DNA of 59,822 nt from IMG/VR virus record IMGVR_UViG_3300021959_000041, positions 1 to 59,822 of that record; one strand, 5' to 3'. Below are positions 4,700-40,828 of this stretch, one piece after another. The translations under genes were made by a program, and so were the position numbers. Numbering within the stretch: position 1 is the first letter of the stretch; each line of letters opens with the position of its first letter. The notes beneath the pieces were generated by a model, which worked only from the letters and a program-made list of their open reading frames with translations, was not told the DNA's origin and ran no database searches. The DNA comes from a virus. Taxonomy: Duplodnaviria > Caudoviricetes.

Positions 4700-4719
4700 A
4701 ACTTAAAAACTAACAAATT

Positions 4720-17867: not shown

Positions 17868-20800
17868 TTAATCTGTATCAAAATCTGTTTTTAAATCAAG
17901 GTCAAGGCTAGTATCTAAATCAATATCTAAACCTTTACTTTTTTTACCAGAAGAACCGAATTTTAATTTCTTAGCTTTTTTTTGTGGCCCACTAATAGCA
18001 TACTCACTAAAGTTAAATATTCTAAGCACGTCTTCACCTGCGCCATCAGTCTCACCATTGATAACTTTCTGTAAATTTTTAACCCACCTTTCTATTATGC
18101 TATATGGTAATCCATTCTTATTTATAAACTCAAACATTTCTTTATTTACCTCGTCATAATCCTCTTGAGTTTTAGCTTTACCAAGTTTATTTATAATTAC
18201 AGCTATATCAGTTGCTGTTTCAAAAACAGGAAAAGATGTTGTCTGTCTATACCATGGCTTATCTTGATAAGCATCAGCAAATTGCTGTATAACTAACCCC
18301 CAAACGAACAACCCATTTAAATTACCCATAAAAGCTGCCCTCATTAATGTATCATCATCATCATCTCTTCTGTCTCTAGCAAGTCCAGGGAATCCGAGAG
18401 ATGTATATGCAAATAAAACAGGCATAAAAGCATGATAAAATGCTAATTGAGATAATGCTTGAGCTATATTAGGAGCGTTTTTGTTTTTATCGCCTTTAGC
18501 AAATCTTTTTGCAGCTCTTGTCATTTGCCTCCATCCTGTAATCTCTCTTCTTAAATACTGCTTAGGCGTTGTCAAGAACATATTTATACCACGTGAAAAG
18601 GGGTCTCTGTTTTGATGAATGTCCCTATCCTGCAAATCGTAAGATTGTTGAGTAGACTTTACATCTTTTTCAAACTTTCTTATAGCATAATCTATCGCTT
18701 GTTGTTCGGTGGCGTTTGGATTTTCATTTTGATATTTAGCCTTATAAAAAGAATAGTTTGGAAGACCTCCTAATAATATTGCACTTCTATCAGCTACTTT
18801 AATGAACCCCATTAACAAATCTATAGCAAAGTTTTGAGTTGGTTTTGGAATAAAACTTTGAAATCTTTCTGGGTTATATGTTTCAATACTACGCAATATA
18901 CTTCGAGCTGCCCTATCTTTTAAATAAACAGAATTTTCTAAAACTTCATTATAAACTTGAAGTTGTTGAGTTTTATTTTTAACTGAATATTTAATCCAAT
19001 TAGCAGGTCCAACCTCTGGTTCTAAAGCAAACGTAGGAATAGAAGTAAGCTGTTTAATTGCTATTGCAGGTGAAAGCATTAGTCTTGATATTTGAAAAAC
19101 ATTATTAAAAAAGTTTAAAACATTAGCGCTTAACATATTAGTTTTAGACTTTCCTGCCATAGCTAAATTGTTAATCATGTTGTCTATTAAATTATAAAAT
19201 TCTTCACCATGAATACTTTCAATAATAATTTTTGCATCTTTGTTTGTGAACAATCGTGATATGGTCTGTAGATTTTCCGCATACGCATCAAAGTACTCCA
19301 TGTCTTGTGTATACTCCTGCATTGCATCTACTAGAGTGCTGTTTTTGATTTTGTCAGTGCTATTAACTCTTAGTTTTGTATAGTTTGAGCCTACCGTAGC
19401 ATTGTATTTACTAGCTCCTTGAAGTAAATGAAACTCTTCTGTTTTTTCGCCTTCTCTTCTAATAGGCCCTGCATAGTATTTGTTATAAGGCATATCAGTG
19501 TAATAAATTCTTTTATATGTTTCATTAAACCTTTGATGCATAATAGGATAAAACTCCTTGACCTGCCACTCACCAAATGCTCTAACTCTATCATCTAATT
19601 TTTCATTCATTTCTCGCATTACTCTTTGATAATCATCACCATACATGTTTTTAAATGTTGGGTGTAAAGCAGGGTCGTTATACTGAAAAACCATGTAACC
19701 TATTTGTTCTTGAGATAATATAATTTCATTTCTTGCAAGAACATCTCTTAATTCATTCTTAGTATCATCGTTTCTATTCTTATCATACTTTGCTTGTGCT
19801 GCCTCAACCTCCTTAATGTTTTTATAAAAAATATTATCAGTTTGATTTAATTCTCTTAAGGTGTATTGATAATTTTTTCCGTAATATTTTATTAAATTTT
19901 CTTCTAACAAGTAAGAAAAATCTAGCATTCTGCTTTTGTATTGCCTTGTTGATTCATTTACTTTATCAGTAACTATTTCTTGTAGTTGACCTCCAAACAC
20001 CACCCCAGGAAACTCGGCTAATTGGTCAATTAGACCTGTTAAATCTTGAGCAGCACCAAATCCCATAGTATTACTAAACCTCCTCATCATTTTTTTAAAT
20101 TTGGTAATTAAATTACCATTTACTCTTTCCTTTTCTGCTATACCTTCTCTGGTTTCTGAAACAGTTTCTACTTCTTTTTTAAAATTTTCTTCATCTGGAT
20201 TTAATTCTTGCTTTGTTGTTTCTTTAATAAGTATAGATAGGTTTTGCATATACTGTTTATGCTTCTCTTGTAGTATGCCTGCCTGTATGTCTCTACCTCT
20301 TACTACTATGTTTTCCAGTTGTGCGTATGCTCTTGTTAAGTTTTCAAGTCTTGAGATATCAGTAGGGTCTTGTAGCATCGCCTCATTATAATTCAGTGCG
20401 GTTGTAATGTCAGCAATCCTCATTAAAGTTTCTGGGGTCAGCTCTTGGTTTTCTGTATCATTATTGCTTTCTAATAAACTTTCTAATTCAGCTCTTAATT
20501 TATCCTGTGTCTTCTCTATAACTTCAACATCAGTACTTGTTACTAGTAAAGATGCAATGGTTTTTAATCTCTTTTTTGTATCAACATCTATCTTAACTCC
20601 TTTAGGTTTTCCAGAAACAACAACCTCATATTTACCATTCAATAATTTTTTAATTCTACTAAGTACGTTTTTATTGTTAAGCTTAGTTACAATTCCTTCT
20701 ATCTCATCTACAATGTTTTCTAAGTTGTTCCCTTTTAAATCTACTGTGCTTAGGTCCTGAATTTCTCTAACTATATCTATTACCTCTGATTTAGTAAACA

Positions 20801-28369: not shown

Positions 28370-30157
28370 TTACGGATAGCTTTTCATTACATCGCTCTCT
28401 ACTGCAAACAGTTCCGTAGCCTGAGTGTTGTAGTTTGTTATAGTAAATATACAATAATGTCCTAGTAAACCATGAGATTCAGCTTCAGAACTTTTTATAA
28501 ACATAATGTATGGGTCATTTAATGGAAAAGCTACAGTGTTTGCAGAGGTTGTACTTACAATTAATTCATTGATTCCGTTTTGTAAATCTACATTTATCTG
28601 AGTTACAATTCCACCATAAGAAACCTCAGTGTATTGAGGTAGAGAATGGTATACATAATCACCTATGCTTATAAAATTACCTATCGATACAAGTGGGTTT
28701 GTAGAAAAACTAAGAGTTGTTGTCCCTTGTGTGATAGCTACATTAGATGTTTTTCCGATACCATTAGCAGACCTCAGTGCATATTGCCCTTCAAGTGCTG
28801 GAACTTCTCCGCTTTGTCTAAGATATGCAAACCAAGCTCCTTCTTTTTTTTCAAACCAACCATCTTCCATAAAGCCATTTATTTGTATATCTGTTTCTAA
28901 ATAAGATTCCCAAGCATCATTAGATTCTAAGTTCAGTGTTTTAAATATTTTATTTTCCAGTGGGTTTTGATTAAACACACTTGTTATTTGTGAGTTATAT
29001 TGTTCTCCATAATAATTGTTTCTTTTTTCATTTACATTGTGCTGGTATAAATTACCTCCTTGAAATGTGTAAAAGAAATTATTCATCCCTATCATATACT
29101 CTGGTATATAAGAATAAAATGATGGCCAACCTTTAGAGTTTTCACTATAACTAACCGTCCATTCTGTTTTAACTGGAGATGGTATAGGAGGAACTACACT
29201 AGGTGGAGCTGGAGTTGGTGTTACAGGAGTTGGTGTGCCGGGTTCAGATGGGTTACAATCAGTGCTAAATCTTAAATTATTTTCTCCTAAAAAATATTGT
29301 CCGTTTGTAGACTCGGGATATAATGTTTGATAGCTTATTACTCCAAAATCTTGATTTACATTTAAGGTTATTGTTCCTGAATAAAAATCATAAGTGTTCC
29401 CATCTAATGCTGTAGCATTTCTTTCTAATTTTGTTCCAGTATAAGATATTTGATTTTCTTTTCCATTATTTAAAAAAGCTATAGGCCACTCTGAACTTAC
29501 ACCAGTTATTTGATATATTCCGGTGTTAACCTCATAATTACCCCACTCTCCATTTATAACATAATATCGTATTGTAACGTTTTCGAATTCTCCTATGGTT
29601 GCAGTACTACTAATAACCGTTAGAGAGTTTGTAAAACTTAAACAATACTGACCAGTTCCTGGAGATGGTGTTGGTGTCGGACTGGGTGATGGTGGTGGTG
29701 CTATAGCAGCATTACAAGTTGCACAATCTGCATACGTCGGTATGTTAGCAATATCTAAATAAGATATGTTAGTAGTGCTTACACCGTTTGTCCAACATAT
29801 AGATTGATATGCTAAATTGGATGGCCATGCTGTAAAACTTGAAGGCGCTCTAAATATTTGTTTTTGACTTGCTGCATTACAGTTTTCATATTCATAATAA
29901 CTATATCCTTCTATAGGTGTTGGGTCAGCCTCACCACACTTTGTTGAACAGTTTTTATTAAAATCATTTACAATACCATAAACAGATGTTTTTCTAATTT
30001 CAGAACCACGCTCTAAACAATATACGTGAATTTCATTTGCAGGAACTTTTATATTTATTTTATCACCACTATAACAAGTGACTACCCACGTACATTGACC
30101 ATTCTCGTCACCTATTTCGTCAATAGGACATGTAAAATTAAATTCAGCACCAGCCAT
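28370..30157 (-). CDS. tail protein: Cys-rich and Pro-rich N-terminus fused to a nozzle/stabilization C-terminal-like region
   Basis: PPPSPSPTPTPSP linkers; TVSYSENSKGWPSFYSY...GNLYQHN...KIFKTLNLES...EKKEGAWF...ELFAVES. Confidence 0.65.
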   Translation of the reverse strand: MAGAEFNFTCPIDEIGDENGQCTWVVTCYSGDKINIKVPANEIHVYCLERGSEIRKTSVYGIVNDFNKNCSTKCGEADPTPIEGYSYYEYENCNAASQKQIFRAPSSFTAWPSNLAYQSICWTNGVSTTNISYLDIANIPTYADCATCNAAIAPPPSPSPTPTPSPGTGQYCLSFTNSLTVISSTATIGEFENVTIRYYVINGEWGNYEVNTGIYQITGVSSEWPIAFLNNGKENQISYTGTKLERNATALDGNTYDFYSGTITLNVNQDFGVISYQTLYPESTNGQYFLGENNLRFSTDCNPSEPGTPTPVTPTPAPPSVVPPIPSPVKTEWTVSYSENSKGWPSFYSYIPEYMIGMNNFFYTFQGGNLYQHNVNEKRNNYYGEQYNSQITSVFNQNPLENKIFKTLNLESNDAWESYLETDIQINGFMEDGWFEKKEGAWFAYLRQSGEVPALEGQYALRSANGIGKTSNVAITQGTTTLSFSTNPLVSIGNFISIGDYVYHSLPQYTEVSYGGIVTQINVDLQNGINELIVSTTSANTVAFPLNDPYIMFIKSSEAESHGLLGHYCIFTITNYNTQATELFAVESDVMKSYP

Positions 30158-30200
30158 AAAGAGATTATTTGTTTACAAATTTACGAATTATTTAGCTTTG

Positions 30201-31040
30201 TTATTTTATATAGGTATTTATAAAAGCATTATAATCTTTAATCCAATTTTCAGCTGACCTTTTAGAACAATTTAAATTTTTAGCATCTGGCCAAAAGTTT
30301 TGTTTAATTTTTTTTGGTCTATTTAATTCTCTATAATTATCTACTCCAGAAACAAAATATTTATGCCATATTAAATTTTCACTAGGAGCATATATGTCTA
30401 CGCCACATTGATATAGAAGTAAACTATAAAGTTCTTGCTCGCATGTACCATAATATTTATAATCATCTACAGTTAAATGTTTTACTATATCACCTTTACA
30501 AAACATGTTACCTCCAGATATATTCATAATTTTTTCATTTTTATTTTGTGCTAATTTTTGGTGGTGTGGACCTATAAAATTTCCAACAAATGGAATTTCA
30601 TTAGGTATATAAATAGAAGATAAATTTCTTTTACTATAAACTTCATAAAGTTCATTGAAGTGATACTCTCTTGGAAAACCGCTAATTACGCTTTTATTTG
30701 GCGTTTCTTTCAACATATTTATATACTCAACGTCCCAACCATTTTTAAATCTACTATGACTATCAACTAATAAAAAATAATCTTGATTATTATATAATTC
30801 TTTCATTATAATATTTCTAGCCCAGCCGCATCCTTCTGCATATTCAGGAAGCACATGTTTTATTGAAATATTTTTGATGTTAAACTGTGATAAAAAACTA
30901 TTAAAAACTAAATATGAATCCTGAATTAAAACCCCTACGTAAACCTGATTTGGACTAGTAGCTCTTTTATATAAATCAGTTACAGTGGGAAATAATTCAG
31001 AATCTTTAAATGAAGCTATGCTTACAAATATTGATTCCAT
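30201..31040 (-). CDS. Gnt1/GT60-like (Skp1-hydroxyproline GlcNAc transferase-like) glycosyltransferase
   Basis: IFVSIASFKDSEL, VYVGVLIQ, AEGCGWAR, YFLLVDSHSRF..GWD, EQ...SL, IWHKY. Confidence 0.78.
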   Translation of the reverse strand: MESIFVSIASFKDSELFPTVTDLYKRATSPNQVYVGVLIQDSYLVFNSFLSQFNIKNISIKHVLPEYAEGCGWARNIIMKELYNNQDYFLLVDSHSRFKNGWDVEYINMLKETPNKSVISGFPREYHFNELYEVYSKRNLSSIYIPNEIPFVGNFIGPHHQKLAQNKNEKIMNISGGNMFCKGDIVKHLTVDDYKYYGTCEQELYSLLLYQCGVDIYAPSENLIWHKYFVSGVDNYRELNRPKKIKQNFWPDAKNLNCSKRSAENWIKDYNAFINTYIK

Positions 31041-31041
31041 G

Positions 31042-31944
31042 TTATTTTATAATTGCAGAAGAGCACTCTTTACATATAGAATTGAATGCTTTTTTATTAA
31101 CTAAATCTCTTTCTTTTGAGAACCATATTTCTTTTATTGTCTTATGTTTTAAGTTACCATAGCTATACTCCATATAATAATCATTACAACATAAAAAAAC
31201 ATCACCTTTTGGAGATATATGCAACCACTCTGTATCCCTTTTAACACTACAACCAATTACTTCTCCTTCAGGTATATTATTAAGCATGACATCTTTTAAC
31301 AAACCTGCTCTATCTATTAAGTTCCATTGCTCATATATTTTAATTGATGGAAATAATTTTTTGGCAATAGCAACCTGGTTTTGCATTTCATTTTTTTCTA
31401 AATCTGGAAAATTTTTTAGTTTAATTATATTTGAATGTTCGTTTATACCGTTTATATGTAGTAATAACAAATTAGGGTTATATAAATTATTTGAAGCATA
31501 ATCTATGTTTCTAATTAGTTTGTCAAACATAACCTCTTTCATTCCAGTTCTTTTTTCAAATAATCTTTTTTCATAAACAGGAGCATTGATTGCTATCATA
31601 CTAACAGCAGGTTGATGTTTGTTAATTAAGTCAATTTTTTTAGGCGTGAGAGGAACTCCATTTGTTAATATACATATTGTCAATTTGTTTTTATTTAATA
31701 TTTTAAGCATAGACTCGAAGTGTTTGTACAACAATACTTCATTATAATGAGAACAATAAATAAAATGCAGGTTTGGGTTTATTAAATCTCCTTTTAAATT
31801 TACAATTTCAGATATAATTTTATCAAACAAATTTATATCCATTTGATTAATTTGATTTTTAGGATTCCCTAAAGTGCTTACTGGACAAAACCAACAGCCT
31901 GCATTACATAAACCATTTGGGTCTAACTGTATGAAATTTATCAT
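31042..31944 (-). CDS. radical SAM enzyme with SPASM/Twitch domain
   Basis: CNAGCWFC (CX3CX2C), LTNG; C-terminal GC...LHISPKGDVFLCCND...GNL...IKEIW...CKEC. Confidence 0.9.
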   Translation of the reverse strand: MINFIQLDPNGLCNAGCWFCPVSTLGNPKNQINQMDINLFDKIISEIVNLKGDLINPNLHFIYCSHYNEVLLYKHFESMLKILNKNKLTICILTNGVPLTPKKIDLINKHQPAVSMIAINAPVYEKRLFEKRTGMKEVMFDKLIRNIDYASNNLYNPNLLLLHINGINEHSNIIKLKNFPDLEKNEMQNQVAIAKKLFPSIKIYEQWNLIDRAGLLKDVMLNNIPEGEVIGCSVKRDTEWLHISPKGDVFLCCNDYYMEYSYGNLKHKTIKEIWFSKERDLVNKKAFNSICKECSSAIIK

Positions 31945-31946
31945 TG

Positions 31947-33179
31947 TTAATTGTACTTATAATGAACATCAAGAGTTCTGTAAGAATTACCTTCTAAAGG
32001 TTCTTTTCTACCGTGTTCACAAATTGCAGATTCATATATTATCATGTCACCAGGTTCTGCATATATTTTATACCATTCACCGTCATGACCCATTATATCT
32101 AAAGGCCAATCGTTTCCATATTTTTTATTTTGACATCCACATTTTAAATTTTTATCTACAATTATTATAGAGCTTACGTGATTAGATTTAAAATCTTCAT
32201 AAGTAGGAGTTATTGTTTCTCCTTTTTGATATGAATTTATACCTTGTATTAATGAAGGTTTTATTGGTTGATTGTTTATCCATTCTTTATGGACTAATAG
32301 TAATTGAGTTTGTATTAATTTTTTTATTGAAGGTAAAACGTCAAGTGAAAACATATTTACGCTTTCTTCTTTTTCTTTTAATAATTTATATGTGTCATTA
32401 ATTATATTCCACGTTTCAGGCGGACATTTTTGCAATGCAAAACCAAGGTCAGTGTGTTTGGGAATTTGCTCTTTAGATGTAAAAACTTTTGGCTCTAATT
32501 TAGAGACAGGTTTTTTTTCTTGTTTTATTAATTCTGATGCTTTTACAACATAAGATTTATTAATAAATTCTCCTTCTTCTTTTTGTTGTTTTTGAGAATC
32601 ATAATACAATTGTGCATCCCCTGCTCCATCCCAAGATTTTTCTCTCCACCATGATGTAACAACATATTTTTTACCCTCATCTACTGTAACGCCTTCATGC
32701 AAATATTGTTCTTGAACTTTTCCGTCTTTTAGATTATGCCACCATAAAGCTTTACCTGTCTCAGGCTCTATTGTTTTTTGTAGTGTTGGAAAATATGTGC
32801 CCCCACCTTTGTACCCCTCGTTTAAATAAATCATTAAAGTGTGTGTTCTATTACCTGATGCTTTACAGTGCATGTCGTAAGCAGGCCCACTAAAAAAATC
32901 ATTGTGTGGTTTGAAGTATTGACCTGGTTCATAGAGCTGTCCCTGTATAGCTTCTCCTTTATTTAATTCTAATCCTAAAGTTTCAGATATTCTTTTTTTT
33001 AAATTTAACAAAATTGGGTTTGTCATATCTAAATTAGAAGTGCTTGAAGTTCTGTGGTCAGTAACATCAGTTCTATCTGTACCTCCAACAACAACAGATG
33101 AACGAGTATGATTGGCGTCAATCATTTTAATTAATTCTTGACATTCCTCAGGTGTGATATAATTATGTATTTCCTCCAT
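31947..33179 (-). CDS. prolyl 4-hydroxylase (2OG-Fe(II)) fused to a second, degenerate 2OG-Fe(II)-like domain
   Basis: RTSS, YEPGQYFKPHNDFF (HxD), TLMIYLN, GGGTYFP, LHEG, GKKY (2OG-binding Lys); second domain PGDMIIYES...HGR. Confidence 0.88.
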   Translation of the reverse strand: MEEIHNYITPEECQELIKMIDANHTRSSVVVGGTDRTDVTDHRTSSTSNLDMTNPILLNLKKRISETLGLELNKGEAIQGQLYEPGQYFKPHNDFFSGPAYDMHCKASGNRTHTLMIYLNEGYKGGGTYFPTLQKTIEPETGKALWWHNLKDGKVQEQYLHEGVTVDEGKKYVVTSWWREKSWDGAGDAQLYYDSQKQQKEEGEFINKSYVVKASELIKQEKKPVSKLEPKVFTSKEQIPKHTDLGFALQKCPPETWNIINDTYKLLKEKEESVNMFSLDVLPSIKKLIQTQLLLVHKEWINNQPIKPSLIQGINSYQKGETITPTYEDFKSNHVSSIIIVDKNLKCGCQNKKYGNDWPLDIMGHDGEWYKIYAEPGDMIIYESAICEHGRKEPLEGNSYRTLDVHYKYN

Positions 33180-33232
33180 TTGATTTGATTTAATTTCAAA
33201 TAAAGTTAATCATAATTATTTAAAATGAAAAA

Positions 33233-35836
33233 CTATGGACAATTAGTAACAGTACACGATAATGTAAATGATGAACCATTCCAGTATCTATAGAAACTTC
33301 CGTTGTTATAATAACCTGCTAATGCAGCTCTATCACAATTTGGAGTTCTGTATAAAAGTGTTGCAGTACAGAAATCAGTTGTATTCATAAAGTATCCAAT
33401 GCTCAAACTACAAGTAAAGCTTGGAACAGGCGATGGACCACTCTGACTTATATACTCTAAGCTTACCGCATTACACGCAGGTGTTGGAGTCGGTGTTGGA
33501 GTAGGCGTTGGTGTTGGACTCGGTGTAGCTTGACAATCAAAACATAGATTAAATGACGCATACGCTAAGTACGAACCATCAGTACCACTTCCAGCGTTTG
33601 TGTCAAATTCAAAACATATCGACCCACTTTTTAACACATTAGGGAATGTAGTGCCAAATGGTGCGCTTACGTCTAATAAGTTACTAGGGTCGTTACAATC
33701 TAAATACCTTCCATATATTGTGCTCGGAGGAGTCGGTGTTGGACTCGGTGTTGGAGTCGGTGTTGGAGTAGGCGTTCCAGAACATCCAGATAACCCCGAA
33801 CAACTATTACTTACTACATCAAGTACACCTTGACAATTGTGATATCCTATATTAACAGCCGTAACTTCATAACATTGAGATGTATCAAACGTTGGACATC
33901 CACCAGTTGTACCACCAGAACTTATTTTAATACCTAATCCTATAACCAAACTATTGCTTCCTGTTATCTCAACGTGATATGTAGGGCTTGTTGTACCACA
34001 AGCAACTATCGATATTTCTTGAGTCGCAGGTGCTGGAGTAGGCGTTGGACTTGGGCTAGGCGTTGTTGCACAAGTCGTTATAGCCTGGACAGCACCGGTA
34101 GAAAGAATTAAATATTTATCATTTGAAGGTTGAGGTAAATATCCTAATTGATTAGAAATACTATACCATTCTAACCCTCCATTAAATACTGTTGTTTTAG
34201 AAGAGTTAGCGTATAAAGTGTCTCCAACAATAATTTGACCTACAGTTGCTCTATTAGAGAACACAAAGTTATTAGTTCTATGGTTACAAGCATCTGCTTC
34301 AATATATCCTTGTTGTGGCAATGCATTAATAAAGAATGAAGGGTTTTCACAATCATAACAATTATTAAAGCTTGATAAAGACTCTACGCTTATAGTTGAT
34401 GTTGCAGTTGTTGATACTGGGTTTGAGTAACAAATATTGTTATGTTTTATAAAGCCAGGGAAACTTGCTGTTGTGCTAAGTTTTCTAAATACTGCTGTAG
34501 TTGATGTTTGACATTCCGTATAAGTTGCATAATTATAAGTTGGAACTGCTCCACAGCCCGAACAACTACTAAATGTAGAATTTAATACAACAGACGAATC
34601 ATAGGATGTTGCTGCGTTATCTATAATTTCCCAACAAGTTGTACCAGTAAACTCTGGGTTTGGTGCGCTAGCTGCGCCCGTTATTTGTATTACAATACCA
34701 TTAGCTAAAGTTGGCGCTGTTAAACCTGTTACTCTTACTTTGTAAGTTGGAGTCGTAGTGAAACATTGTCTTATTTCAACATCTTGGAATGTAGGAGCTG
34801 GGCTAGGTGTTGGGCTAGGTGTTGGAGGCATACAGTCTATAATTGTATCAACAACACCAAGTGAGCTAATAAGTAAAGCATATCCACTATCTAAGTTTGG
34901 ATAATGACTATTTACGTTTGTTACACCATAAAAACTTAATCCTCCATTCCAAACATTAGTTAGACCTGAATTAGTGTAAATTATATCGTTTACCTGTATC
35001 GAAGCTACATCAGCTCTTGATGTGTACATGCTGTTAGTAGCTTGTGCGGCACACGCAGTAGATGAGTTTCCGACTCCATTACCTACTGTATACGTAGAGA
35101 ATATTTGTGTTCCAGGAGCTGGAGTTGGACTAGGCGTTGGACTTGGAGTTGGACTTGGAGTTGGACTTGGGCTAGGCGTTGTACCTAGACATGTAGCACA
35201 ATCTACATAAGAAGCAGTAATATCATTAGTGCTGGTAGAGCCAGTTGCAGAAGGAGAAGAGTAACAAAGATTGTTATCTTTTACAACCGCTGGGAACGAG
35301 CCACCAGAGACTAATCTAAATATTTTAGGAGTTGAACCACCACATAAAACATACTCTCTATAGTCATAACTAATAGGTGTCGGTGTTGGCGATGGACTAG
35401 GAGTTGGACTTGGAGATGGAGTAGGCGTAGGGGTAGAGCCACACTCAGTACAATTATTATAACTTACTAAACCATTTACATTTATAGTAGATGTTGAACC
35501 TGTAGCTTGTGGATTATCATAACAAATTGAATTATAAGATACAGTTTGTGGAAAAGTTCCTCCTTGAACTATTCTAAATACTTCATTAGGACTTACACCA
35601 TCACAAGCTGTATAAACTCTATAGTCATAAGCAATAGGTGTTGGAGAAGGGGTAGGTGTTCCACAATTTGGACAATCATCTTCAGCAAACAACACACCAG
35701 AAGCTTGCTGCCTTACAATTGACTGGTCAGAATACCATCCATCAGGAGCAAAAGAAGATAGGTCAGCATCCGTGAACAATGCAGTAGCAGTTGAAAAACT
35801 TGCTGAGCTATAATAATATGTTCCTGTTGTTGCCAT
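33233..35836 (-). CDS. modular Cys-rich virion protein with (Thr/Ser-Pro)n linkers, 867 aa
   Basis: Repeated Y..C...ICY...C..C modules separated by PTPSPTP runs; lies in the tail gene block. Confidence 0.75.
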   Translation of the reverse strand: MATTGTYYYSSASFSTATALFTDADLSSFAPDGWYSDQSIVRQQASGVLFAEDDCPNCGTPTPSPTPIAYDYRVYTACDGVSPNEVFRIVQGGTFPQTVSYNSICYDNPQATGSTSTINVNGLVSYNNCTECGSTPTPTPSPSPTPSPSPTPTPISYDYREYVLCGGSTPKIFRLVSGGSFPAVVKDNNLCYSSPSATGSTSTNDITASYVDCATCLGTTPSPSPTPSPTPSPTPSPTPAPGTQIFSTYTVGNGVGNSSTACAAQATNSMYTSRADVASIQVNDIIYTNSGLTNVWNGGLSFYGVTNVNSHYPNLDSGYALLISSLGVVDTIIDCMPPTPSPTPSPAPTFQDVEIRQCFTTTPTYKVRVTGLTAPTLANGIVIQITGAASAPNPEFTGTTCWEIIDNAATSYDSSVVLNSTFSSCSGCGAVPTYNYATYTECQTSTTAVFRKLSTTASFPGFIKHNNICYSNPVSTTATSTISVESLSSFNNCYDCENPSFFINALPQQGYIEADACNHRTNNFVFSNRATVGQIIVGDTLYANSSKTTVFNGGLEWYSISNQLGYLPQPSNDKYLILSTGAVQAITTCATTPSPSPTPTPAPATQEISIVACGTTSPTYHVEITGSNSLVIGLGIKISSGGTTGGCPTFDTSQCYEVTAVNIGYHNCQGVLDVVSNSCSGLSGCSGTPTPTPTPTPSPTPTPPSTIYGRYLDCNDPSNLLDVSAPFGTTFPNVLKSGSICFEFDTNAGSGTDGSYLAYASFNLCFDCQATPSPTPTPTPTPTPTPACNAVSLEYISQSGPSPVPSFTCSLSIGYFMNTTDFCTATLLYRTPNCDRAALAGYYNNGSFYRYWNGSSFTLSCTVTNCP

Positions 35837-35860
35837 TTATAATTTTACAAAGTTAACCAT

Positions 35861-38800
35861 TTATGTTGAACATCTTGAATCTCCACATCCTGCTACTTGA
35901 ACAATTACTTCACCGTTTTGTCCACTGCCTCCTACATCATATAAAGATACACATCCTATTATTGAGCCAAATTGATATTGAACCTCATCTCCAACAACAA
36001 TACCTAGTGTTTGGTTTGCTTTCACATACACTGCTTGCAGACTAACACAATCAATTCCTAAGAAATAATCATATACCGGTGCTGGACTTGGAGTTGGACT
36101 TGGAGTTGGACTTGGAGTTGGACTTGGTGTAAACGTACAATTACAACACGCATCTAATAAACTTGTTGAAGAATAACACAATTCTTGACCTACTGCATTT
36201 CTTAAATCATATATCAAATATAATTTGTTTCCGTTGGCCGGTAAACCAAATTCAGCGCTATATAAATTAGGAGCGCCAGTAGTGTTTATTGGAGTAGCTT
36301 TTATTGACGCCGCTAATAAAATACTTATATCAGTTGGATTATTTTCATATAAAGCATCAGTTCTTAAATATCTAAACTCATTTTCTATTGGGTCGAATTG
36401 GAAATCATCAAAATTAATTTTGTTAGACCTCATTATAATGGTTGAACCATCAGGCGGTATAACACCTAAAGCTTGAGGGCCTTCAAGCTCTCTATATTGT
36501 GAAACTATTGGGTCACTAGGGCTAGCTAAAAAAGTAACTAAATCTGATTGTGTTGGTGAGGTAACAGTTAAATTTGTCCAACTAAATTCAGTGTGTGAAA
36601 ACTGGCCAGAGTTAGCGTTTGTAGTAAGCGTAACACTATAAACACTAAACACTTCTTCTTCTGGACACTTTACAGTAACTTGAATTGTATCATTTACTAT
36701 TGCATCCGAAGAAATAATCATAACAACTTCTGTAGGCGTTGGATTTGGTTTTGGAAACCTTAAAGTTCCACTTTGATAAACAATACCTGTAGTGTATGTA
36801 ACACCATCATATATTGCTTGAACTATATACCCTGTACCCGTCACTTGACCTTCCGTTTCTAAATCTAATCCTGCTTCTGAAACCATTTGCTGTTCCGTCC
36901 CTTCTGTTACAATTAAATCTGTGTTCTCAAAAGGAATTACATAATCTATCTCTACATAATTAAGATTTGATGGAGGGCCTACAGTTTCACCTAACTCCAC
37001 ACAATAAACAAATTCTTGTCCAGCAACAATAGTTATATTTTTAGTAACACCACATGCAGTACATAACTCTGTTTCCGGCTTTACAATTGTATTAGTTGTA
37101 AAAACATACTCTTGCATATAAGGGTCATATCCACCTAATTTTTGTGTTGATGAAGCCTCAGCAAATAAATCTCTAAACCAACTTCTCATACCTTCATTAG
37201 ATATAACCGTCAGAATTTCATTTTGAGCTGAACTACCAGTTAATTTAATAACCACATTTCTTTTAGCATCTGTAAAAAATTTGTTTTGTCCAAAAGTTGC
37301 AAAACTTTCTGGGTGATTACTTATACCATACTCTTCAATCCTAGCTATTTGTGTTCCTAAAACTTGAGGCACTGAGGTTACAACCCCGCCCCCTGTAGAA
37401 TCTGAGAGTAAGTTTTTCCCCGCTAACACATAAGATATTTTATCTTCTTGAAGTACAAGAATATCTGTTTCTCTTGCAAACAATATTTCTACATCTCCAT
37501 ACGTTTCTTCTAATGGTTTAAAGTTAGCAAGACCTAAATTAAATTCATTTAACCTATTTACATTTGATTCATCATTAAACACTCCACTATAAGTAATATC
37601 AGCAAATCTGTGAGCAGCTTTAAACTCTTCATTAGATGTTGTAAAAACTCTGTTCCCTAAATTAAAAGACTTACCTTTTATTGAATCTCTAATTCTATAA
37701 CTTTCTACACCATTACCAAAACTATAACAGTTTGTAAAACCAGGTTTTATAAGAGCTGGCTGACTAGAGGTTTGGTTTTGAACGTTTCCTAAATGCAGAC
37801 CATTACTAATATTGAATGATTTACTATTTTCATACCATGCGTCTGGTAACGCATCTTGAGGCTCTGTTTCAAAAACATAAGTTGCACCATCACCTCTGTA
37901 TACGGTAAATGAAACTTCAAGCATAGATTCTTCGTTTTCTGTTTTACCCGCAGAGTAAGAACCTGATACTAAAAGAAAAATTAAATTGTTTCCATTTGAA
38001 TCTTGAGTACTTGTGTCTTCGTAAATTCTATAATAAAAATTATCATTAAAATCTAATGATGAAGGTGTACCTCCTCCAAATAAATTATTTCCTCTTAAAT
38101 CAGAATCTTGTTTACAAGCGCTATGTATAATTTCATTAGCTGCAACGCCTAAAGGAGCAGCTCCATTGTTAACTTGAGGTGAAATAAAAGTATTTTCTAT
38201 CGTTTGAACCTGACCTGGATTTTTAACACCACTATCTAATATACTAGCAACGTTATCTCCAATAAACCAATTAGCCATATTGGTGTAATTAGTAGATGCA
38301 GTAAGCGTTTGTTCTAGTGTATAATTTCTTCTTCCATCTGCTCCTGTTCCAGTACCATTTCTTCTCATCTCAACCCTCATAACTATTCTACTTCCAACTG
38401 GCACATCATACACATCATAAGTAGGAGTTAGTGGAGATGGTCTATTTACAGTTGTAAAAAAAGGAAAAGCTATAGTAGGTATCTCTCCATCTGTTCTACA
38501 GGTTCGTTCCACAGGGTCAACAGCAATAACAGCATTAGGGTCTTGTATAGATGAAAAATTAGATGCGTTTATTTTCATATACACCCCACCTATCACATCT
38601 ACTTGAGTTCCTGATGCGTCATAAATAGATATAAATCCACTTGACTGAGCTTCTTTCTCTAACACCGTAGTTCTTATACACCTAGATGTTGGCCCAGTGT
38701 TATCTGCTTTTACAATTAAAGTGTCTCCCGCTTCTACTTTAGAAGCATTTTCTCCATCTAATAGAAAGTAACTTGAATTTGAAACTGTATCTCTATAAGC

Positions 38801-40828
38801 AACATTACTATAAATTGTTTCATAAGTTTCTTTAGTAGGCTTAATAACAAATTTATATTTTGTTGCCCAGATTGGAGCTATCTGAGTTGTAGGTATTTCT
38901 ACTTGTATATAATTTCTATCAATTGATTTACTACACGGAATATTAATTGAACCTCCATCCTCAATACTACTAACTAAGGCTGTTGAAGCTCTGTTAAAGT
39001 CATCCATATAAACTATACCAACCTCATAACCTCTATTACTATGTAAACTTTCAGCGCTTGTGCTATCTCTAAAAGAAGCAGTTTCGTTTACTATACCCCA
39101 ATATGTAAAACCATATTGAGCTCCCCCATCAGAATATTGTGCCGCTAAGTTTTGTATTTGTAAAATTTTTGAAGATGTACCATTAATAGTTGCTGTTAAA
39201 GCTTGACCAGCGTTTGGAAACGTTGGTGTCGCAGAAGTTATTCCAGTTTGCTGCAAACTGTATGTAGAGTCTAAGTTTTCTGGGACTGTTCTATTAAAAA
39301 CATCTGTTAAAGTGTTACCTAGTCCAGCTTGTGCGTTTGCAACGGTTTGTATTGTTCCGTTTACTCCATCAGTCCCTATCTTTTCTTGAAAGTCAGTGCT
39401 TGTAACAAAACTATATACATTTGTATAATCATCTATTAAAGTATAAGACCATGTAAGTTCAAAAACTGCTGTGGTTGGAGTTGGAGCTGAGCCAAAACCC
39501 TGTTCAAACTCAAAAAAAGTTATACCAAAATTTAATGTTAATCTTGTTCCTTTTTTTAATTGAGACTCACCCTGTACTAAAGAACTTAAATCAATATTTA
39601 ATACTGAATCTGAAGTTGTTTTACTTGATGAAGTAGGCGTATATGTAAATTGTCCAGAACTTGTGTGAGCAGGAATATCAATAATAGATATTGATTCTGA
39701 TTTATAACTTGCTGTAAAATCTAAATTAACATTTACTCCTTCACTTGTTTTTAAATCATAACCTTCCATGTAGTTTCCATACATCAACCTATTACCCATC
39801 AACGTTTGTGCTTTAGCTAATTGAGGAACGTTATCATATAATCTTAAAATTTCTGAATCTGGTAATACAGTAAATATTTCTCTACTTGTAAAATTATACA
39901 CTTCATCATTATTACTTATACCACTCAAATTTTTTCTTTTATTTAAAGTTTTAATAACTTTAATAGAAGTACTATCAGCTTCTTTGAAAAGTAATTGAAC
40001 ATCAGTTACACTAGTACTACCAGTATTAAATGTAATAGAAACAGCATTGTTTTGATTAACCATTCCTTCATTTAAATAACTATTGGTAGTAAAATCAAAA
40101 TTACCAGGTGTAAATGCTGGCTCACTAAACTGAGAAATAGCTGAAAATTCATTATTAGCATACTTATATCTATAAGCAAAACATAAAAACTTATCTTCTA
40201 AATACGCATCAGTTATGCTTGAAACAAAATATGGTAGTATTGTTGGAGCGCTTGTAGGAGGTTTTTTTATTACTAAAATATCGTCTTGATTAAATACATC
40301 AACGTTTACTCCAAGTAATGGGTCTCCATAGTTTTGATTTATATTAATTACTCTAGGAGGATTAGTGTTATCTGTAAAAAATAATAAATTATCTATTTTA
40401 TCTACTCCTGTAATTAAAAAATTTGGATTAAAGTTTAATGTAGTGTTTACGCCATTGCCGTCATTAATACTAATTACGTGGTATATTAACTGTCCAGTTT
40501 CAACATCAAATGAAATTATCAAATCTAATTTACCTGTAGCTCCTTGAGTAAATGCAGGGTCATGAACAAACCAATAAATAACTAAATTAGCCCCGTCTTC
40601 AAATGCACCTATACATCTAGCCTGTGAACTTAATTTAGTTCCATCAACATATTGAATTTCTGTTAAAGGTAAATTTCCTTTAGAGTTTTCAACAGCACCA
40701 ATTTCAGAGTCTTCAGTAGAACCAAGCCTTACATTTACAGCATTTACATACTCTCCATTTGGGACAAGCCTTTCATCAAGGCTTTTATTCATTCGGCCCG
40801 CTATAAAATTTCTTTGAATGTTTGCCAT
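35861..40828 (-). CDS. tail nozzle/stabilization protein (large), with Pro/Cys-rich C-terminus, 1655 aa
   Basis: N-terminal F..GRMNKSLDERLVPNGEY..A.NVR...GAVENSKGN, LLFFTDNTNPPR, FAYRYKY, NRLMYGNY; follows the ring proteins. Confidence 0.75.
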   Translation of the reverse strand: MANIQRNFIAGRMNKSLDERLVPNGEYVNAVNVRLGSTEDSEIGAVENSKGNLPLTEIQYVDGTKLSSQARCIGAFEDGANLVIYWFVHDPAFTQGATGKLDLIISFDVETGQLIYHVISINDGNGVNTTLNFNPNFLITGVDKIDNLLFFTDNTNPPRVININQNYGDPLLGVNVDVFNQDDILVIKKPPTSAPTILPYFVSSITDAYLEDKFLCFAYRYKYANNEFSAISQFSEPAFTPGNFDFTTNSYLNEGMVNQNNAVSITFNTGSTSVTDVQLLFKEADSTSIKVIKTLNKRKNLSGISNNDEVYNFTSREIFTVLPDSEILRLYDNVPQLAKAQTLMGNRLMYGNYMEGYDLKTSEGVNVNLDFTASYKSESISIIDIPAHTSSGQFTYTPTSSSKTTSDSVLNIDLSSLVQGESQLKKGTRLTLNFGITFFEFEQGFGSAPTPTTAVFELTWSYTLIDDYTNVYSFVTSTDFQEKIGTDGVNGTIQTVANAQAGLGNTLTDVFNRTVPENLDSTYSLQQTGITSATPTFPNAGQALTATINGTSSKILQIQNLAAQYSDGGAQYGFTYWGIVNETASFRDSTSAESLHSNRGYEVGIVYMDDFNRASTALVSSIEDGGSINIPCSKSIDRNYIQVEIPTTQIAPIWATKYKFVIKPTKETYETIYSNVAYRDTVSNSSYFLLDGENASKVEAGDTLIVKADNTGPTSRCIRTTVLEKEAQSSGFISIYDASGTQVDVIGGVYMKINASNFSSIQDPNAVIAVDPVERTCRTDGEIPTIAFPFFTTVNRPSPLTPTYDVYDVPVGSRIVMRVEMRRNGTGTGADGRRNYTLEQTLTASTNYTNMANWFIGDNVASILDSGVKNPGQVQTIENTFISPQVNNGAAPLGVAANEIIHSACKQDSDLRGNNLFGGGTPSSLDFNDNFYYRIYEDTSTQDSNGNNLIFLLVSGSYSAGKTENEESMLEVSFTVYRGDGATYVFETEPQDALPDAWYENSKSFNISNGLHLGNVQNQTSSQPALIKPGFTNCYSFGNGVESYRIRDSIKGKSFNLGNRVFTTSNEEFKAAHRFADITYSGVFNDESNVNRLNEFNLGLANFKPLEETYGDVEILFARETDILVLQEDKISYVLAGKNLLSDSTGGGVVTSVPQVLGTQIARIEEYGISNHPESFATFGQNKFFTDAKRNVVIKLTGSSAQNEILTVISNEGMRSWFRDLFAEASSTQKLGGYDPYMQEYVFTTNTIVKPETELCTACGVTKNITIVAGQEFVYCVELGETVGPPSNLNYVEIDYVIPFENTDLIVTEGTEQQMVSEAGLDLETEGQVTGTGYIVQAIYDGVTYTTGIVYQSGTLRFPKPNPTPTEVVMIISSDAIVNDTIQVTVKCPEEEVFSVYSVTLTTNANSGQFSHTEFSWTNLTVTSPTQSDLVTFLASPSDPIVSQYRELEGPQALGVIPPDGSTIIMRSNKINFDDFQFDPIENEFRYLRTDALYENNPTDISILLAASIKATPINTTGAPNLYSAEFGLPANGNKLYLIYDLRNAVGQELCYSSTSLLDACCNCTFTPSPTPSPTPSPTPSPAPVYDYFLGIDCVSLQAVYVKANQTLGIVVGDEVQYQFGSIIGCVSLYDVGGSGQNGEVIVQVAGCGDSRCST
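36083..36127. repeat. 12-bp tandem repeat TGGACTTGGAGT (about 3.75 copies) encoding (TPSP)n on the minus strand
   Basis: Seen directly; similar imperfect 12-bp arrays near 35114-35180 and 33727-33777. Confidence 0.9.

What the first reader, a model, noticed from the sequence alone, without database searches (positions are those of the whole stretch)
28370..40828. Candidate phage hydroxyproline-glycosylation system: P4H, radical SAM and Gnt1/GT60-like transferase next to (Ser/Thr-Pro)n tail proteins
Seen: three tightly spaced enzyme genes (33179 to 30201) lie inside the tail gene block. The three nearest tail genes (35861..40828, 33233..35836, 28370..30157) are the only ones in the window with long PTPSPTP runs. 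Known: P4Hs with HxD..H..K ligands hydroxylate Pro in (Ser-Pro)n and other Pro-rich repeats in algae, plants and chlorovirus PBCV-1. Gnt1/GT60 enzymes (DSH motif) add GlcNAc to hydroxyproline of Skp1 in Dictyostelium and Toxoplasma after PhyA acts. Inference: the phage hydroxylates and then glycosylates its own tail linkers, making extensin- or mucin-like stalks. This could give protease resistance, rigidity, glycan mimicry or O2-dependent maturation. I do not know of such a pathway described in a bacteriophage.
Basis: partly seen in the sequence, partly recalled or inferred. Interest (0 to 1): 0.92.

Follow-up and report, generated by a model that had tools for sequence, protein, structure and literature searches.

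The report
Phage tail-linker hydroxylation and glycosylation cassette
A marine phage carries a prolyl hydroxylase, a radical SAM enzyme and a GlcNAc-type glycosyltransferase between the only three virion genes with long Thr/Ser-Pro linkers, so it probably coats its own tail linkers with sugars, something not yet described for phages.

Summary
Three back-to-back genes (33179-30201, minus strand) encode a two-domain 2OG oxygenase with a collagen-type prolyl 4-hydroxylase N-domain, a BtrN-like radical SAM enzyme, and a GT60/PF11397 glycosyltransferase. All 10 ([S/T/A]-P)>=3 runs in the six frames of the window lie in the three flanking virion genes.

Of 45 related tail loci, 26 carry a P4H-led cassette and all 26 have PT linkers. 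The other 19 lack the cassette and have none in these genes.

The cassette varies at the same site. P4H is constant, while the transferases and sugar-tailoring genes change (GT60, HPAT-like, O-FucT-like, SDR enzymes, or rSAM). Other phage lineages repeat P4H+GT60, or the full oxygenase-rSAM-GT60 trio, next to extreme Pro-rich "beads-on-a-string" proteins. On the GT60 tree, all P4H-less transferases but one fall in a single clade.

The enzymes track the linkers, not the small 4-Cys modules that the linkers join.

Still unproven: whether the sugar goes on hydroxyproline or on Thr/Ser, what the rSAM does, and any chemistry at all. Independent evolutionary events are few. In this phage the second oxygenase domain has lost a predicted iron ligand. 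I found no published precedent.

The parts
35861..40828 (-). 1655-aa virion structural protein. The core (~1-1500) is shared with cassette-less relatives. The C-terminus carries a PT linker (36077-36130) plus one Cys-containing add-on module.
   Evidence: phrog_14478 virion structural protein, E 3.1e-220. Homologues in Cellulophaga and Flavobacterium podophages are annotated as structural protein. 47% identity to a 1469-aa cassette-less homologue. PT run found.
33233..35836 (-). 867-aa 'beads-on-a-string' tail appendage. It has a 58-aa conserved N-terminal anchor, then about 10 small Cys-containing modules joined by 7 PT/SP linkers. Composition: 4.4% Cys, 9.8% Pro, 14.1% Thr.
   Evidence: PT runs at 33479-33526, 33728-33775, 34028-34063, 34793-34822, 35114-35179, 35375-35434 and 35636-35659. 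Module and linker layout. The N-terminal 58 aa are 47% identical to the N-terminus of the equivalent protein in a cassette-less phage. No Pfam family.
32610..33179 (-). N-domain (residues 1-190) of the 410-aa oxygenase: collagen-type prolyl 4-hydroxylase with H92-x-D94, H161 and K171.
   Evidence: PF13640, E 6.1e-13. PDB 5iax, E 4.7e-25; also 7zsc, 2jig and 5c5t. The ligand residues are nearly invariant in 16 two-domain homologues.
31950..32474 (-). C-domain (residues 236-410) of the same protein: a second double-stranded beta-helix 2OG-oxygenase domain. Relatives keep H-x-D...H389...R401. This phage has T326-x-E328, and N333 in place of a conserved His.
   Evidence: AlphaFold2 pLDDT 93.3. Foldseek top hits are 3bvc, Pseudomonas PPHD 4j25, PHD2, Dictyostelium PhyA 6t8m, AviO1/HygX and BesD/HalA, with TM 0.55-0.69. 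No Pfam hit below E 0.04. Residue mapping.
31042..31944 (-). 300-aa radical SAM enzyme with a single-auxiliary-cluster C-terminal domain (BtrN/Twitch-like).
   Evidence: PF04055, E 2e-10, and PF13186, E 1.2e-10. The best solved relative is BtrN, E 1.6e-7, with C232, C252/253, C291 and C294 aligned to BtrN's auxiliary-cluster Cys region. Invariant Cys listed.
30201..31040 (-). 279-aa GT60-family (PF11397, Gnt1/pp-alphaGlcNAcT family) glycosyltransferase with a D93-S94-H95 motif.
   Evidence: PF11397, E 2.3e-39. phrog_24687 glycosyltransferase. Invariant DSH and H226-K227-Y228. Falls in a P4H-linked clade of 27 rows with 96% support.
28370..30157 (-). 595-aa virion protein. The C-terminal ~265 aa form the muzzle-type core shared with cassette-less phages. 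The N-terminal ~330 aa are an add-on with a 4-Cys module and two PT linkers (29660-29689, 29204-29221).
   Evidence: PF25729 crAss_MUZ_C, E 3.7e-19. Cassette-less relatives match only residues ~332-595 and are 265-268 aa long. PT runs found.

Best explanation
The window is a nearly complete ~60-kb podophage genome. It is related to the Pachyviridae Cellulophaga phages and to Flavobacterium 'elemo' phages, so the host is probably a marine Flavobacteriia member.

Three enzymes sit inside its late virion operon and are co-translated with three tail-appendage proteins. In those proteins, small Cys-containing modules are strung on (Thr/Ser-Pro)n linkers.

Proposed mechanism (all steps inferred):
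1. In the host cytoplasm the P4H N-domain hydroxylates prolines in the linkers, using O2 and 2-oxoglutarate.
2. The GT60 enzyme then transfers a HexNAc, most likely GlcNAc from host UDP-GlcNAc, onto the hydroxyproline, as Gnt1 does. It may also modify neighbouring Thr/Ser.
3. The BtrN-like radical SAM enzyme is genetically welded to the GT60 gene. It occupies the slot that sugar-nucleotide dehydratases or epimerases hold in sister cassettes. It most likely tailors the sugar by oxidation or epimerisation.

The result would be stiff, protease-resistant, extensin- or mucin-like glycosylated stalks displaying the distal modules. Swapping the transferase set between related phages would vary the glycan.

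Shown here: gene identities, catalytic motifs, operon position, and co-occurrence of enzymes with linkers. Inferred: substrate, order of steps, acceptor atom, sugar, and the rSAM reaction.
For: **Identity and motifs.**

**All PT runs flank the cassette.** 10 of 10 runs in the window lie in the three flanking genes.

**Within the phage family.** fetched 45 loci related to the 595-aa protein; one search analysed them. 26 have a P4H-led cassette, and 26 of 26 have PT runs in the tail genes. 19 have the same tail genes but no cassette, and 0 of 19 have PT runs in those genes. Three of the 19 have one run in an unrelated minus-strand ORF. One complete (100%) 59.8-kb cassette-less relative has no PF13640 match anywhere. 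The cultured relatives phi46:3 and MW202828 have neither cassette nor PT runs.

**Same site, variable content, P4H constant**.
- P4H-rSAM-GT60.
- P4H-SDR dehydratase-unknown-HPAT-like. The HPAT hit is weak (E 5.5e-4, below cut-off).
- P4H-GT60::GT32-like fusion.
- P4H-O-FucT-like-GT60-SDR epimerase.

**Other lineages.**
- 5 of 5 loci of a second phage lineage (one on a 229-kb contig) have GT60 plus a single-domain P4H directly downstream of proteins with (PPTPA)n, (TPPPP)9 or P11 linkers.
- L024 and L025 are the same, 2 of 2.
- 'Group B' phages place a fusion of O-FucT and GT60 domains (plus HPAT, PF23452, E 3.6e-11, in L047) directly after the two-domain P4H.
- A related MAG contig adds a PLOD-type GT.

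**rSAM relatives.** One search found 149 and kept 80. Of the 64 loci outside this family, 24 have GT60 directly downstream, 10 have a P4H-type oxygenase directly upstream, and 9 have the full trio. In L256, Pfam gives 2OG-FeII_Oxy_3 at 4e-20 and GT60 at 3.2e-35. The upstream proteins there carry (TP)22-type linkers between Cys knots.

**GT60 tree.** 79 rows. All P4H-less enzymes form one clade of 38, plus one row at a contig edge. Two label changes are needed, against 26.8 in shuffles.

**Enzymes follow linkers, not modules.** 7 metagenome loci carry proteins with up to 5 copies of the 4-Cys module joined without PT linkers. 0 of 7 have P4H, GT60 or rSAM. Only 2 of the 7 have several kb of flank.
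Against: No biochemical or mass-spectrometric data exist for any member.

**Few independent events.** On the tree of the muzzle-type domain, cassette presence needs only 3 changes. Only 3 independent pairs exist and the sign test is not significant (p 0.5). The 26-versus-19 split therefore represents few events.

**GT60 also contains Ser/Thr-directed enzymes** (passages read in PMC6939170 and PMC8724618). In the best 80 of 257 bacterial GT60 loci, only 4 have a P4H nearby. Several Pseudoduganella loci put GT60 directly after a giant Thr/Pro-rich protein with no P4H.

**Missing pieces in some loci.**
- In 6 of 7 group-B loci no Pro-rich protein lies within the fetched flanks on the coding strand.
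- L014 and L020 keep the rSAM, GT60 and PT proteins but lack the P4H N-domain. These records are only 42-44% complete.
- The window's own C-domain lacks a predicted iron ligand.
- 40 of the 64 rSAM-relative loci show no adjacent GT60.

The P4H N-domain is closest to the B. anthracis enzyme, whose natural substrate is, as far as I recall, unsettled.
Confidence: 0.6

Rival explanations
1. Mucin-type reading. The GT60 enzyme puts GlcNAc on the Thr/Ser of the linkers, as protist pp-alphaGlcNAc transferases do. The P4H separately hydroxylates prolines only to stiffen or stabilise the polyproline-II stalks. Both act on the same linkers, but glycosylation does not depend on hydroxyproline.
For: - GT60 holds Ser/Thr-directed enzymes (PMC8724618 passage; PMC6939170 passage).
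- Bacterial GT60 genes lie beside Thr/Pro-rich giant proteins without P4H.
- Every linker found here contains Thr or Ser.
- L014 and L020 keep GT60 and PT linkers without the P4H N-domain.
Against: - All phage GT60 clades except one are strictly P4H-linked.
- P4H is the one constant gene, while the transferases are swapped.
- Alternative cassettes use HPAT-family and PLOD-type domains, families known for hydroxy-amino-acid acceptors.
- One lineage has an almost pure P11 linker with a single Thr.
Confidence: 0.25
2. The enzymes do not act on the virion proteins. They modify a host target (for example EF-Tu-type prolyl hydroxylation, envelope glycans or DNA) or make a small molecule. Their position among tail genes would then be a moron-style insertion.
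For: - GC drops to 0.272 at 30-32 kb against about 0.35 around it, which suggests acquired DNA.
- PHROGs files the GT and oxygenase families under 'moron, auxiliary metabolic gene'.
- The C-domain fold resembles PHD/PPHD enzymes that hydroxylate cellular proteins.
- One clade of 38 phage GT60 genes has no P4H and sits among small non-structural genes.
Against: - The cassette sits inside one terminator-free late operon with 1-2 nt gene gaps.
- Cassette presence matches PT linkers in the neighbouring genes in 26 of 26 loci against 0 of 19.
- The same pairing recurs in unrelated phage backbones.
Confidence: 0.07
3. Sub-rival for the radical SAM only. It acts on the protein, not the sugar. For example, it makes thioether cross-links in the Cys-rich modules as a cytoplasmic substitute for disulfides, or it oxidises or epimerises a linker residue.
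For: - SPASM/Twitch rSAM enzymes are often peptide maturases. Weak NCBIfam hits include DynA, YhhB and ScmF.
- Cys is concentrated in the substrate proteins (4.4%, 2.2% and 1.1%, against 0-0.4% in other virion proteins).
- Trio-bearing phages have Cys-knot beads.
Against: - The same 4-Cys modules occur in many cassettes without any rSAM.
- They also occur in a lineage with no cassette at all.
- The rSAM is coupled to the GT60 gene (24 of 64 outside loci, and all rSAM loci of this family).
- It replaces SDR sugar enzymes in sister cassettes.
- The closest solved enzyme is the carbohydrate-type dehydrogenase BtrN.
Confidence: 0.2

Closest known systems
Skp1 hydroxyproline glycosylation pathway of Dictyostelium and Toxoplasma (PhyA, Gnt1, PgtA, AgtA/Glt1/Gat1)
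   Same: It is cytoplasmic. A prolyl 4-hydroxylase is followed by a GT60 enzyme with the same DxH-type motif, and Gnt1 activity depends on prior hydroxylation (PMC6939170 passage). Some phage cassettes add further GT2, GT32-like and fucosyltransferase-like genes that could extend a chain.
   Different: - The target here would be many prolines in repetitive linkers of virion proteins, not one proline of Skp1.
- The phage N-domain is collagen-type (Lys as 2OG binder; best hit B. anthracis P4H), not a PHD-type PhyA.
- A radical SAM enzyme is part of the unit.
- No oxygen-sensing role is implied.
Plant and algal extensin/AGP Hyp-O-glycosylation (P4H plus HPAT and other arabinosyltransferases), and chlorovirus PBCV-1 P4H
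   Same: A P4H acts on (Ser/Thr-Pro)n or X-Pro4 repeats. A (TPPPP)9 linker in a related phage mimics the extensin SPPPP motif. An HPAT-family domain is present in related cassettes. The window's P4H matches Chlamydomonas and PBCV-1 P4H structures at about 1e-11.
   Different: - No HPAT domain is found in this window. The initiating enzyme here is GT60.
- The process is cytoplasmic, not in the secretory pathway.
- PBCV-1 is a eukaryotic virus. As far as I recall, no glycosylation has been linked to its P4H.
Protist mucin-type O-GlcNAc transferases (GT60 pp-alphaGlcNAcT of Trypanosoma cruzi and Dictyostelium)
   Same: Same CAZy family. The acceptors are Thr/Pro-rich repeats (PMC8724618 passage).
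   Different: Those enzymes are Golgi-resident, act on Thr/Ser, and need no P4H. The phage GT60 clades are P4H-linked, apart from one clade.
Virion glycosylation in mycobacteriophages
   Same: Phage-encoded glycosyltransferases modify the phage's own virion proteins. 'Virion glycosylation' occurs in 24 papers that also mention mycobacteriophage; I saw only the listing, abstract starts and a genome announcement.
   Different: As I recall, those systems glycosylate capsid and tail-tube C-termini on Ser/Thr. They have no hydroxylase, no radical SAM and no Pro-rich linkers. I did not read the primary paper.
BtrN (butirosin 2-deoxy-scyllo-inosamine dehydrogenase), a Twitch-domain radical SAM
   Same: It is the best solved relative of the phage rSAM (E 1.6e-7). 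It is of similar size, has the CxxxCxxC motif, and has a four-Cys C-terminal pattern consistent with one auxiliary cluster.
   Different: Similarity is low. BtrN acts on a free aminocyclitol in antibiotic biosynthesis. The phage enzyme's substrate is unknown. An extra invariant Cys (C91) is present.

Membership tests
GT60 / Pfam PF11397 (Gnt1 and pp-alphaGlcNAcT family) | Profile match above the curated threshold | tested here: met
   E 2.3e-39, 136.3 bits against a cut-off of 21. Confirmed on the DNA.
GT60 / Pfam PF11397 | D-x-H metal/nucleotide motif in place of DxD (the motif's status as a family hallmark is recalled) | tested here: met
   D93-S94-H95 is invariant in 19 sequences.
GT60 / Gnt1 subtype | Transfers alpha-GlcNAc from UDP-GlcNAc to hydroxyproline, dependent on a P4H | not testable with these tools
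   Only indirect evidence: strict genomic linkage to P4H in all but one phage GT60 clade. No solved GT60 structure matched by sequence.
Collagen-type prolyl 4-hydroxylase (PF13640 / P4Hc) | Sequence homology to solved P4Hs, with the H-x-D...H iron triad and the 2OG-binding Lys | tested here: met
   5iax at 4.7e-25, 7zsc at 6e-16, 2jig at 1.3e-11 and 5c5t at 2.7e-11. H92, D94, H161 and K171 are nearly invariant.
Collagen-type prolyl 4-hydroxylase | Hydroxylates peptidyl proline in Pro-rich repeats | not testable with these tools
   Inferred from co-occurrence with PT linkers.
2OG/Fe(II) oxygenase (C-domain, residues 236-410) | Double-stranded beta-helix fold | tested here: met
   pLDDT 93.3. 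297 PDB matches at E<=1e-3; the listed top matches are 2OG oxygenases or uncharacterised proteins.
2OG/Fe(II) oxygenase (C-domain) | Complete H-x-D/E...H iron-binding triad | tested here: not met
   The window has T326 where at least 90% of 17 relatives have His. E328 and H389 are kept. The triad assignment is by alignment position and predicted strand, not by coordinates.
Radical SAM superfamily | CxxxCxxC cluster motif and a PF04055 match | tested here: met
   C13, C17 and C20 are invariant. PF04055 E 2e-10, 41.5 bits against a cut-off of 29.5.
SPASM subgroup (two auxiliary clusters, 7-Cys motif; recalled definition) | Seven conserved C-terminal Cys | tested here: not met
   PF13186 matches (1.2e-10), but only C232, C252, C253, C291 and C294 are conserved. 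This pattern fits a single-cluster Twitch domain like that of BtrN.
Skp1 modification pathway (membership, as distinct from mechanism) | PHD-type PhyA orthologue and a Skp1 substrate | tested here: not met
   The N-domain is collagen-type. Only the probably inactive C-domain resembles PHD/PhyA, and only in fold, at 10-16% identity. There is no Skp1 in phage or bacteria (established knowledge).
Extensin-type Hyp-arabinosylation (HPAT, PF23452) | HPAT-family transferase next to P4H | tested here: not met
   Absent from the window. Present in related phage cassettes: L047 at 3.6e-11, and L087 at 5.5e-4, below cut-off.
crAss-type muzzle protein | PF25729 C-terminal domain | tested here: met
   Residues 378-447 of the 595-aa protein, E 3.7e-19, 69.4 bits against a cut-off of 27.

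The most novel reading that the evidence does not exclude
Many aquatic phages encode a self-contained, cytoplasmic hydroxyproline-O-glycosylation pathway of extensin/mucin type for their own receptor-binding appendages. It would be built from a P4H, a GT60 initiator, exchangeable extending and tailoring enzymes, and a BtrN-like radical SAM. That rSAM would carry out a so-far undescribed radical modification of a protein-bound sugar or of hydroxyproline. The glycosylation islands would be swapped between phages to vary the glycan coat. Such phage or bacterial modules could be the prokaryotic relatives of the eukaryotic PhyA/Gnt1 and P4H/HPAT systems.
Probability: 0.3. Interest if true: 0.92.

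Novelty: new variant of a known kind. Interest (0 to 1): 0.82.

Why it matters
Hydroxyproline O-glycosylation is regarded as a eukaryotic speciality, known from plant cell walls and protist Skp1. Phage virion glycosylation is known only from a few Ser/Thr-type cases.

A phage-encoded, cytoplasmic P4H-plus-transferase system acting on tail linkers would:
- add a new class of virion post-translational modification;
- explain why thousands of 'auxiliary' 2OG oxygenase, GT60 and radical SAM genes sit in phage structural modules;
- give a compact three-gene toolkit for making Hyp-glycosylated polyproline stalks in bacteria;
- bear on host range, protease resistance and particle stickiness of abundant marine Flavobacteriia phages.

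It is directly testable by co-expression and mass spectrometry.

Tried and rejected
- **Megablast of the 12.5-kb region against 50,697 phage records:** no match.
- **tblastn of the GT and the oxygenase against the same records:** only distant hits. The GT hit 2 Xanthomonas jumbo phages. The oxygenase hit 25 records, none covering 80%. No cultured close relative carries the cassette.
- **GT against PDB sequences:** nothing meaningful.
- **NCBIfam:** nothing above cut-off for any of the three enzymes.
- **ESM Atlas for the rSAM:** only unnamed phage rSAM/SPASM clusters.
- **Pfam on the C-domain, 17 members:** nothing below E 0.04.
- **4-Cys module fold:** no PDB match at E<=1e-3, and none in BFVD. 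The weak RbpA-like resemblance (TM ~0.5) is not relied on. The pdb_via_wide library was busy twice, so a wider fold search was not done.
- **rSAM and GT60 complex prediction:** no verdict, score 0.00. This is evidence neither for nor against binding.
- **Viral contigs search with a PT-less multi-module protein:** nothing found. The metagenome scan then found 15 loci.
- **Literature:** searches, plus a passage search in PMC12014285, found no description of hydroxyproline or P4H-dependent glycosylation of phage proteins. Supplements were closed and were not consulted. Subscription journals are not covered.
- **Collagen-like G-X-Y repeats as the P4H substrate:** considered and dropped. None occurs in the window's flanking genes, and they are only occasional in related loci.
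- **PT runs as simple DNA repeats:** considered and dropped. Pro, Thr and Ser codons are mixed within the runs.

Full report
**What the window is.** The window is a whole virus record of 59,822 bases, estimated 99% complete. It has no near-identical record among 50,697 deposited phage genomes. Its 1655-aa virion protein finds homologues in 87 phage records. These are Flavobacterium 'elemo' phages, Cellulophaga phages (for example phi46:3, family Pachyviridae; phi38:1), Tenacibaculum and Maribacter phages, and an uncultured 60.8-kb podovirus at 42% identity. Terminase, portal and several 'virion structural protein' families lie upstream on the same strand. The host is therefore probably a Flavobacteriia member; this is inference.

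**The observation.**
- The six ORFs exist as described, all on the minus strand. The three enzyme genes are separated by 1-2 nt. No minus-strand terminator-like site lies between 42516 and 28640.
- A six-frame scan for ([S/T/A]-P)>=3 found 10 runs in the whole window. All 10 are in the three genes that flank the enzymes.
- Two other tail-fibre genes of the window (phrog_24898) have none.
- Codons within the runs are mixed, so these are not simple DNA repeats.
- Cys is also concentrated in the three proteins: 4.4%, 2.2% and 1.1%, against 0-0.4% in the other virion proteins.

**The enzymes.**

*Glycosyltransferase (279 aa).* It matches Pfam PF11397, the GT60 family of Gnt1, at E 2.3e-39. D93-S94-H95 is invariant across 19 homologues.

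*Oxygenase (410 aa).* It has two domains.
- Residues 1-190 match solved prolyl 4-hydroxylases: B. anthracis 4.7e-25, human C-P4H alpha-2 6e-16, Chlamydomonas 1.3e-11, PBCV-1 2.7e-11. H92-x-D94, H161 and K171 are conserved.
- Residues 236-410 have no significant Pfam match. They fold with pLDDT 93 into a double-stranded beta-helix.
- The nearest solved structures for this second domain are uncharacterised marine 2OG oxygenases, PHD-type prolyl hydroxylases including Dictyostelium PhyA, the sugar-modifying AviO1/HygX, and BesD/HalA.
- Relatives conserve H-x-D...H...R in this domain. The window, and its closest relative L003, have Thr at the first His position and Asn at another conserved His. 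The second domain may therefore be inactive here.

*Radical SAM protein (300 aa).* It has the CxxxCxxC motif and a SPASM-family match. Only five conserved C-terminal Cys are present. Its best solved relative is BtrN (E 1.6e-7), and the four auxiliary-cluster Cys positions align.

**The substrates.**
- The 867-aa protein starts with a 58-aa segment that is 47% identical to the N-terminus of the equivalent protein in cassette-less relatives. It continues as about ten small Cys-containing modules separated by PT linkers.
- The 1655-aa protein aligns at 47% identity, from residue 1 to about 1500, with a 1469-aa cassette-less homologue. It then adds a PT linker and one module.
- The 595-aa protein has a crAss-muzzle-type C-terminal core (PF25729). 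Cassette-less relatives possess this core alone, at 265-268 aa. The N-terminal 330 aa, with a module and two PT linkers, are extra.
- One module type has four invariant Cys and is about 62-66 aa long. It occurs 120 times in the fetched loci, all of them cassette-bearing. It folds confidently (pLDDT 95.6) but matches no solved or predicted viral structure at E<=1e-3.
- The module is rare. It is found in 101 of 1.84 billion representative proteins at E<=1e-3, and 41 of those 101 have PT runs.

**Comparative test 1: the same phage family.** fetched 45 loci related to the 595-aa protein; one search analysed them.
- 26 carry a P4H-led cassette, and all 26 have PT runs in the tail genes.
- 19 have the homologous tail genes but no cassette, and none has a PT run in those genes. 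Three of the 19 have one in an unrelated minus-strand ORF.
- One cassette-less relative is a complete 59.8-kb genome with no PF13640 match at all.
- Two deposited relatives also lack both features.
- The caveat is that on a tree of the shared domain the cassette needs only 3 changes. A paired test has only 3 pairs and is not significant. This is a small number of events, not 45 independent observations.

**Comparative test 2: the cassette is a variable island led by P4H.** At the same position, sister phages carry different sets:
- P4H-rSAM-GT60, as in the window.
- P4H, an SDR sugar-nucleotide dehydratase, an unknown gene, and an HPAT-like gene (weak hit, E 5.5e-4).
- P4H and a GT60::GT32-like fusion.
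- P4H, an O-FucT-like gene, GT60, and an SDR epimerase.

The rSAM thus sits where sugar-tailoring enzymes sit elsewhere.

**Comparative test 3: other phage backbones.**
- The GT profile found 374 viral relatives. Of the best 80 loci, 29 have a P4H-type neighbour at E<1e-10.
- A lineage with one member on a 229-kb contig has GT60 plus a single-domain P4H, and in some members GT2 genes. These lie directly after proteins with (PPTPA)n, (TPPPP)9 or P11 linkers. This holds in 5 of 5 loci.
- L024 and L025 are similar (2 of 2 loci).
- 'Group B' phages fuse O-FucT and GT60 domains, and in L047 also an HPAT domain (PF23452, 3.6e-11), in one protein directly after a two-domain P4H. A similar MAG contig adds a PLOD-type GT and a GT6 domain. 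In group B, however, only 1 of 7 loci shows a Pro-rich protein on the coding strand within the flanks.
- Among 49 loci with GT60 but no P4H, 3 have a Pro-rich coding-strand protein.
- On the GT60 tree, 99 domain sequences collapsed to 79 distinct rows, after domains under 150 aa were dropped. The P4H-less enzymes form one clade of 38, plus one row at a contig edge. Two label changes are needed, against 26.8 in shuffles.

**Comparative test 4: the radical SAM.** Its profile found 149 viral relatives, and 80 were kept. Of the 64 loci outside this family:
- 24 have a GT60 gene directly downstream;
- 10 have a P4H-type oxygenase directly upstream;
- 9 have the full trio (Pfam confirmation for L256).

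In the trio loci examined, the upstream proteins have very long (TP)n or (APTP)n linkers between Cys-rich knots. The other 40 loci have different neighbours, for example cpn60, GT2 or other 2OG oxygenases.

**Comparative test 5: linkers or modules?** A metagenomic lineage has proteins with up to five copies of the 4-Cys module joined without PT linkers. None of its 7 module-bearing loci has P4H, GT60 or rSAM. Only two of them have several kb of flank. The enzymes therefore follow the linkers, which also argues against the rSAM acting on the modules.

**Bacterial genomes.** GT60 relatives are common: 257 were found and the best 80 examined. Only 4 have P4H nearby. Three are Bacteroidota or Saprospiraceae MAG contigs of the group-B type, and one is Polaribacter aquimarinus. 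Several Pseudoduganella loci place a GT60::methyltransferase directly after a giant Thr/Pro-rich protein without P4H. This keeps the Ser/Thr-acceptor rival alive. GT60 is documented to contain both Hyp- and Ser/Thr-directed enzymes (passages in PMC6939170 and PMC8724618).

**Verdict.**
- The most likely reading (0.6) is a phage-encoded, cytoplasmic system. It hydroxylates linker prolines, adds HexNAc to the hydroxyproline, and uses the BtrN-like rSAM to tailor the sugar.
- The main rival (0.25) has GT60 acting on Thr/Ser, independent of hydroxylation.
- A non-virion target is unlikely (0.07).
- My literature searches found no description of such a pathway in phages. Subscription journals and supplements were not covered.
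- I rate it a new variant of a known kind, of high interest, and directly testable by co-expression and mass spectrometry.

Noticed in passing
window 31950-32474 (-), residues T326 and N333 of the 410-aa protein: The second oxygenase domain has Thr and Asn where at least 90% of relatives have His, one of them the predicted first iron ligand. The nearest relative L003 shares this. The domain may be a pseudo-enzyme in this sub-clade.
   Followed up: partly
L014:8525-9091 and L020 (same coordinates): These related phages keep only the second (C-terminal) oxygenase domain, together with rSAM, GT60 and PT-linker proteins. No PF13640 match occurs in their 25-27-kb, 42-44% complete records. The two oxygenase domains may be partly redundant.
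   Followed up: partly
L015:8366-9985, L022:6556-7260, L258:3449-4363 and 4394-5323: Some Pro-rich linker proteins end in what looks like a Hint/intein-type domain (a Cys-led start and a terminal His-Asn). This suggests autoprocessing. In L258 the linker is an odd (PFFPPFFP)n repeat. The domain call is by eye and not tested.
   Followed up: no
window 17868-25976 (-): A 2702-aa ORF with no PHROG match at E<=1e-5 and no Cys at all lies directly downstream of the tail genes. It could be an ejected internal virion protein.
   Followed up: no
window 30001-32000: GC falls to 0.272 over the GT and rSAM genes, against about 0.35 on either side. This is consistent with recent acquisition of that pair.
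   Followed up: no
L148:2634-9536 (Pseudoduganella ginsengisoli) and eight similar loci: A GT60::methyltransferase fusion (514 aa) lies directly after a 1780-aa protein with long Ala/Pro/Thr repeats, with no P4H. This is a likely bacterial GT60 and adhesin glycosylation pair.
   Followed up: partly
L166:7914-11468 (Polaribacter aquimarinus): A chromosomal GT60 (PF11397, 2.8e-58), an unknown 492-aa gene and a P4H-type oxygenase (PF13640, 3e-12) lie in a row in a Flavobacteriia genome. This is a possible cellular counterpart of the phage cassette.
   Followed up: partly
L136:4831-13542: A two-domain P4H is followed by a 1516-aa O-FucT/GT60/GT2 fusion, then a 940-aa protein with a PLOD-type GT domain and a GT6 domain. 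This is a very large multi-transferase island.
   Followed up: partly
L222:5992-8546 and similar loci (L221, L224-L226, L229): Relatives of the rSAM at about 50% identity sit directly upstream of a phage cpn60/GroEL-type chaperonin instead of a GT60.
   Followed up: no
P0029 (1095 aa): Copies of the 4-Cys module are joined by long poly-Thr/Ser stretches instead of PT linkers. This is a mucin-like variant of the same architecture, in unknown genomic context.
   Followed up: no
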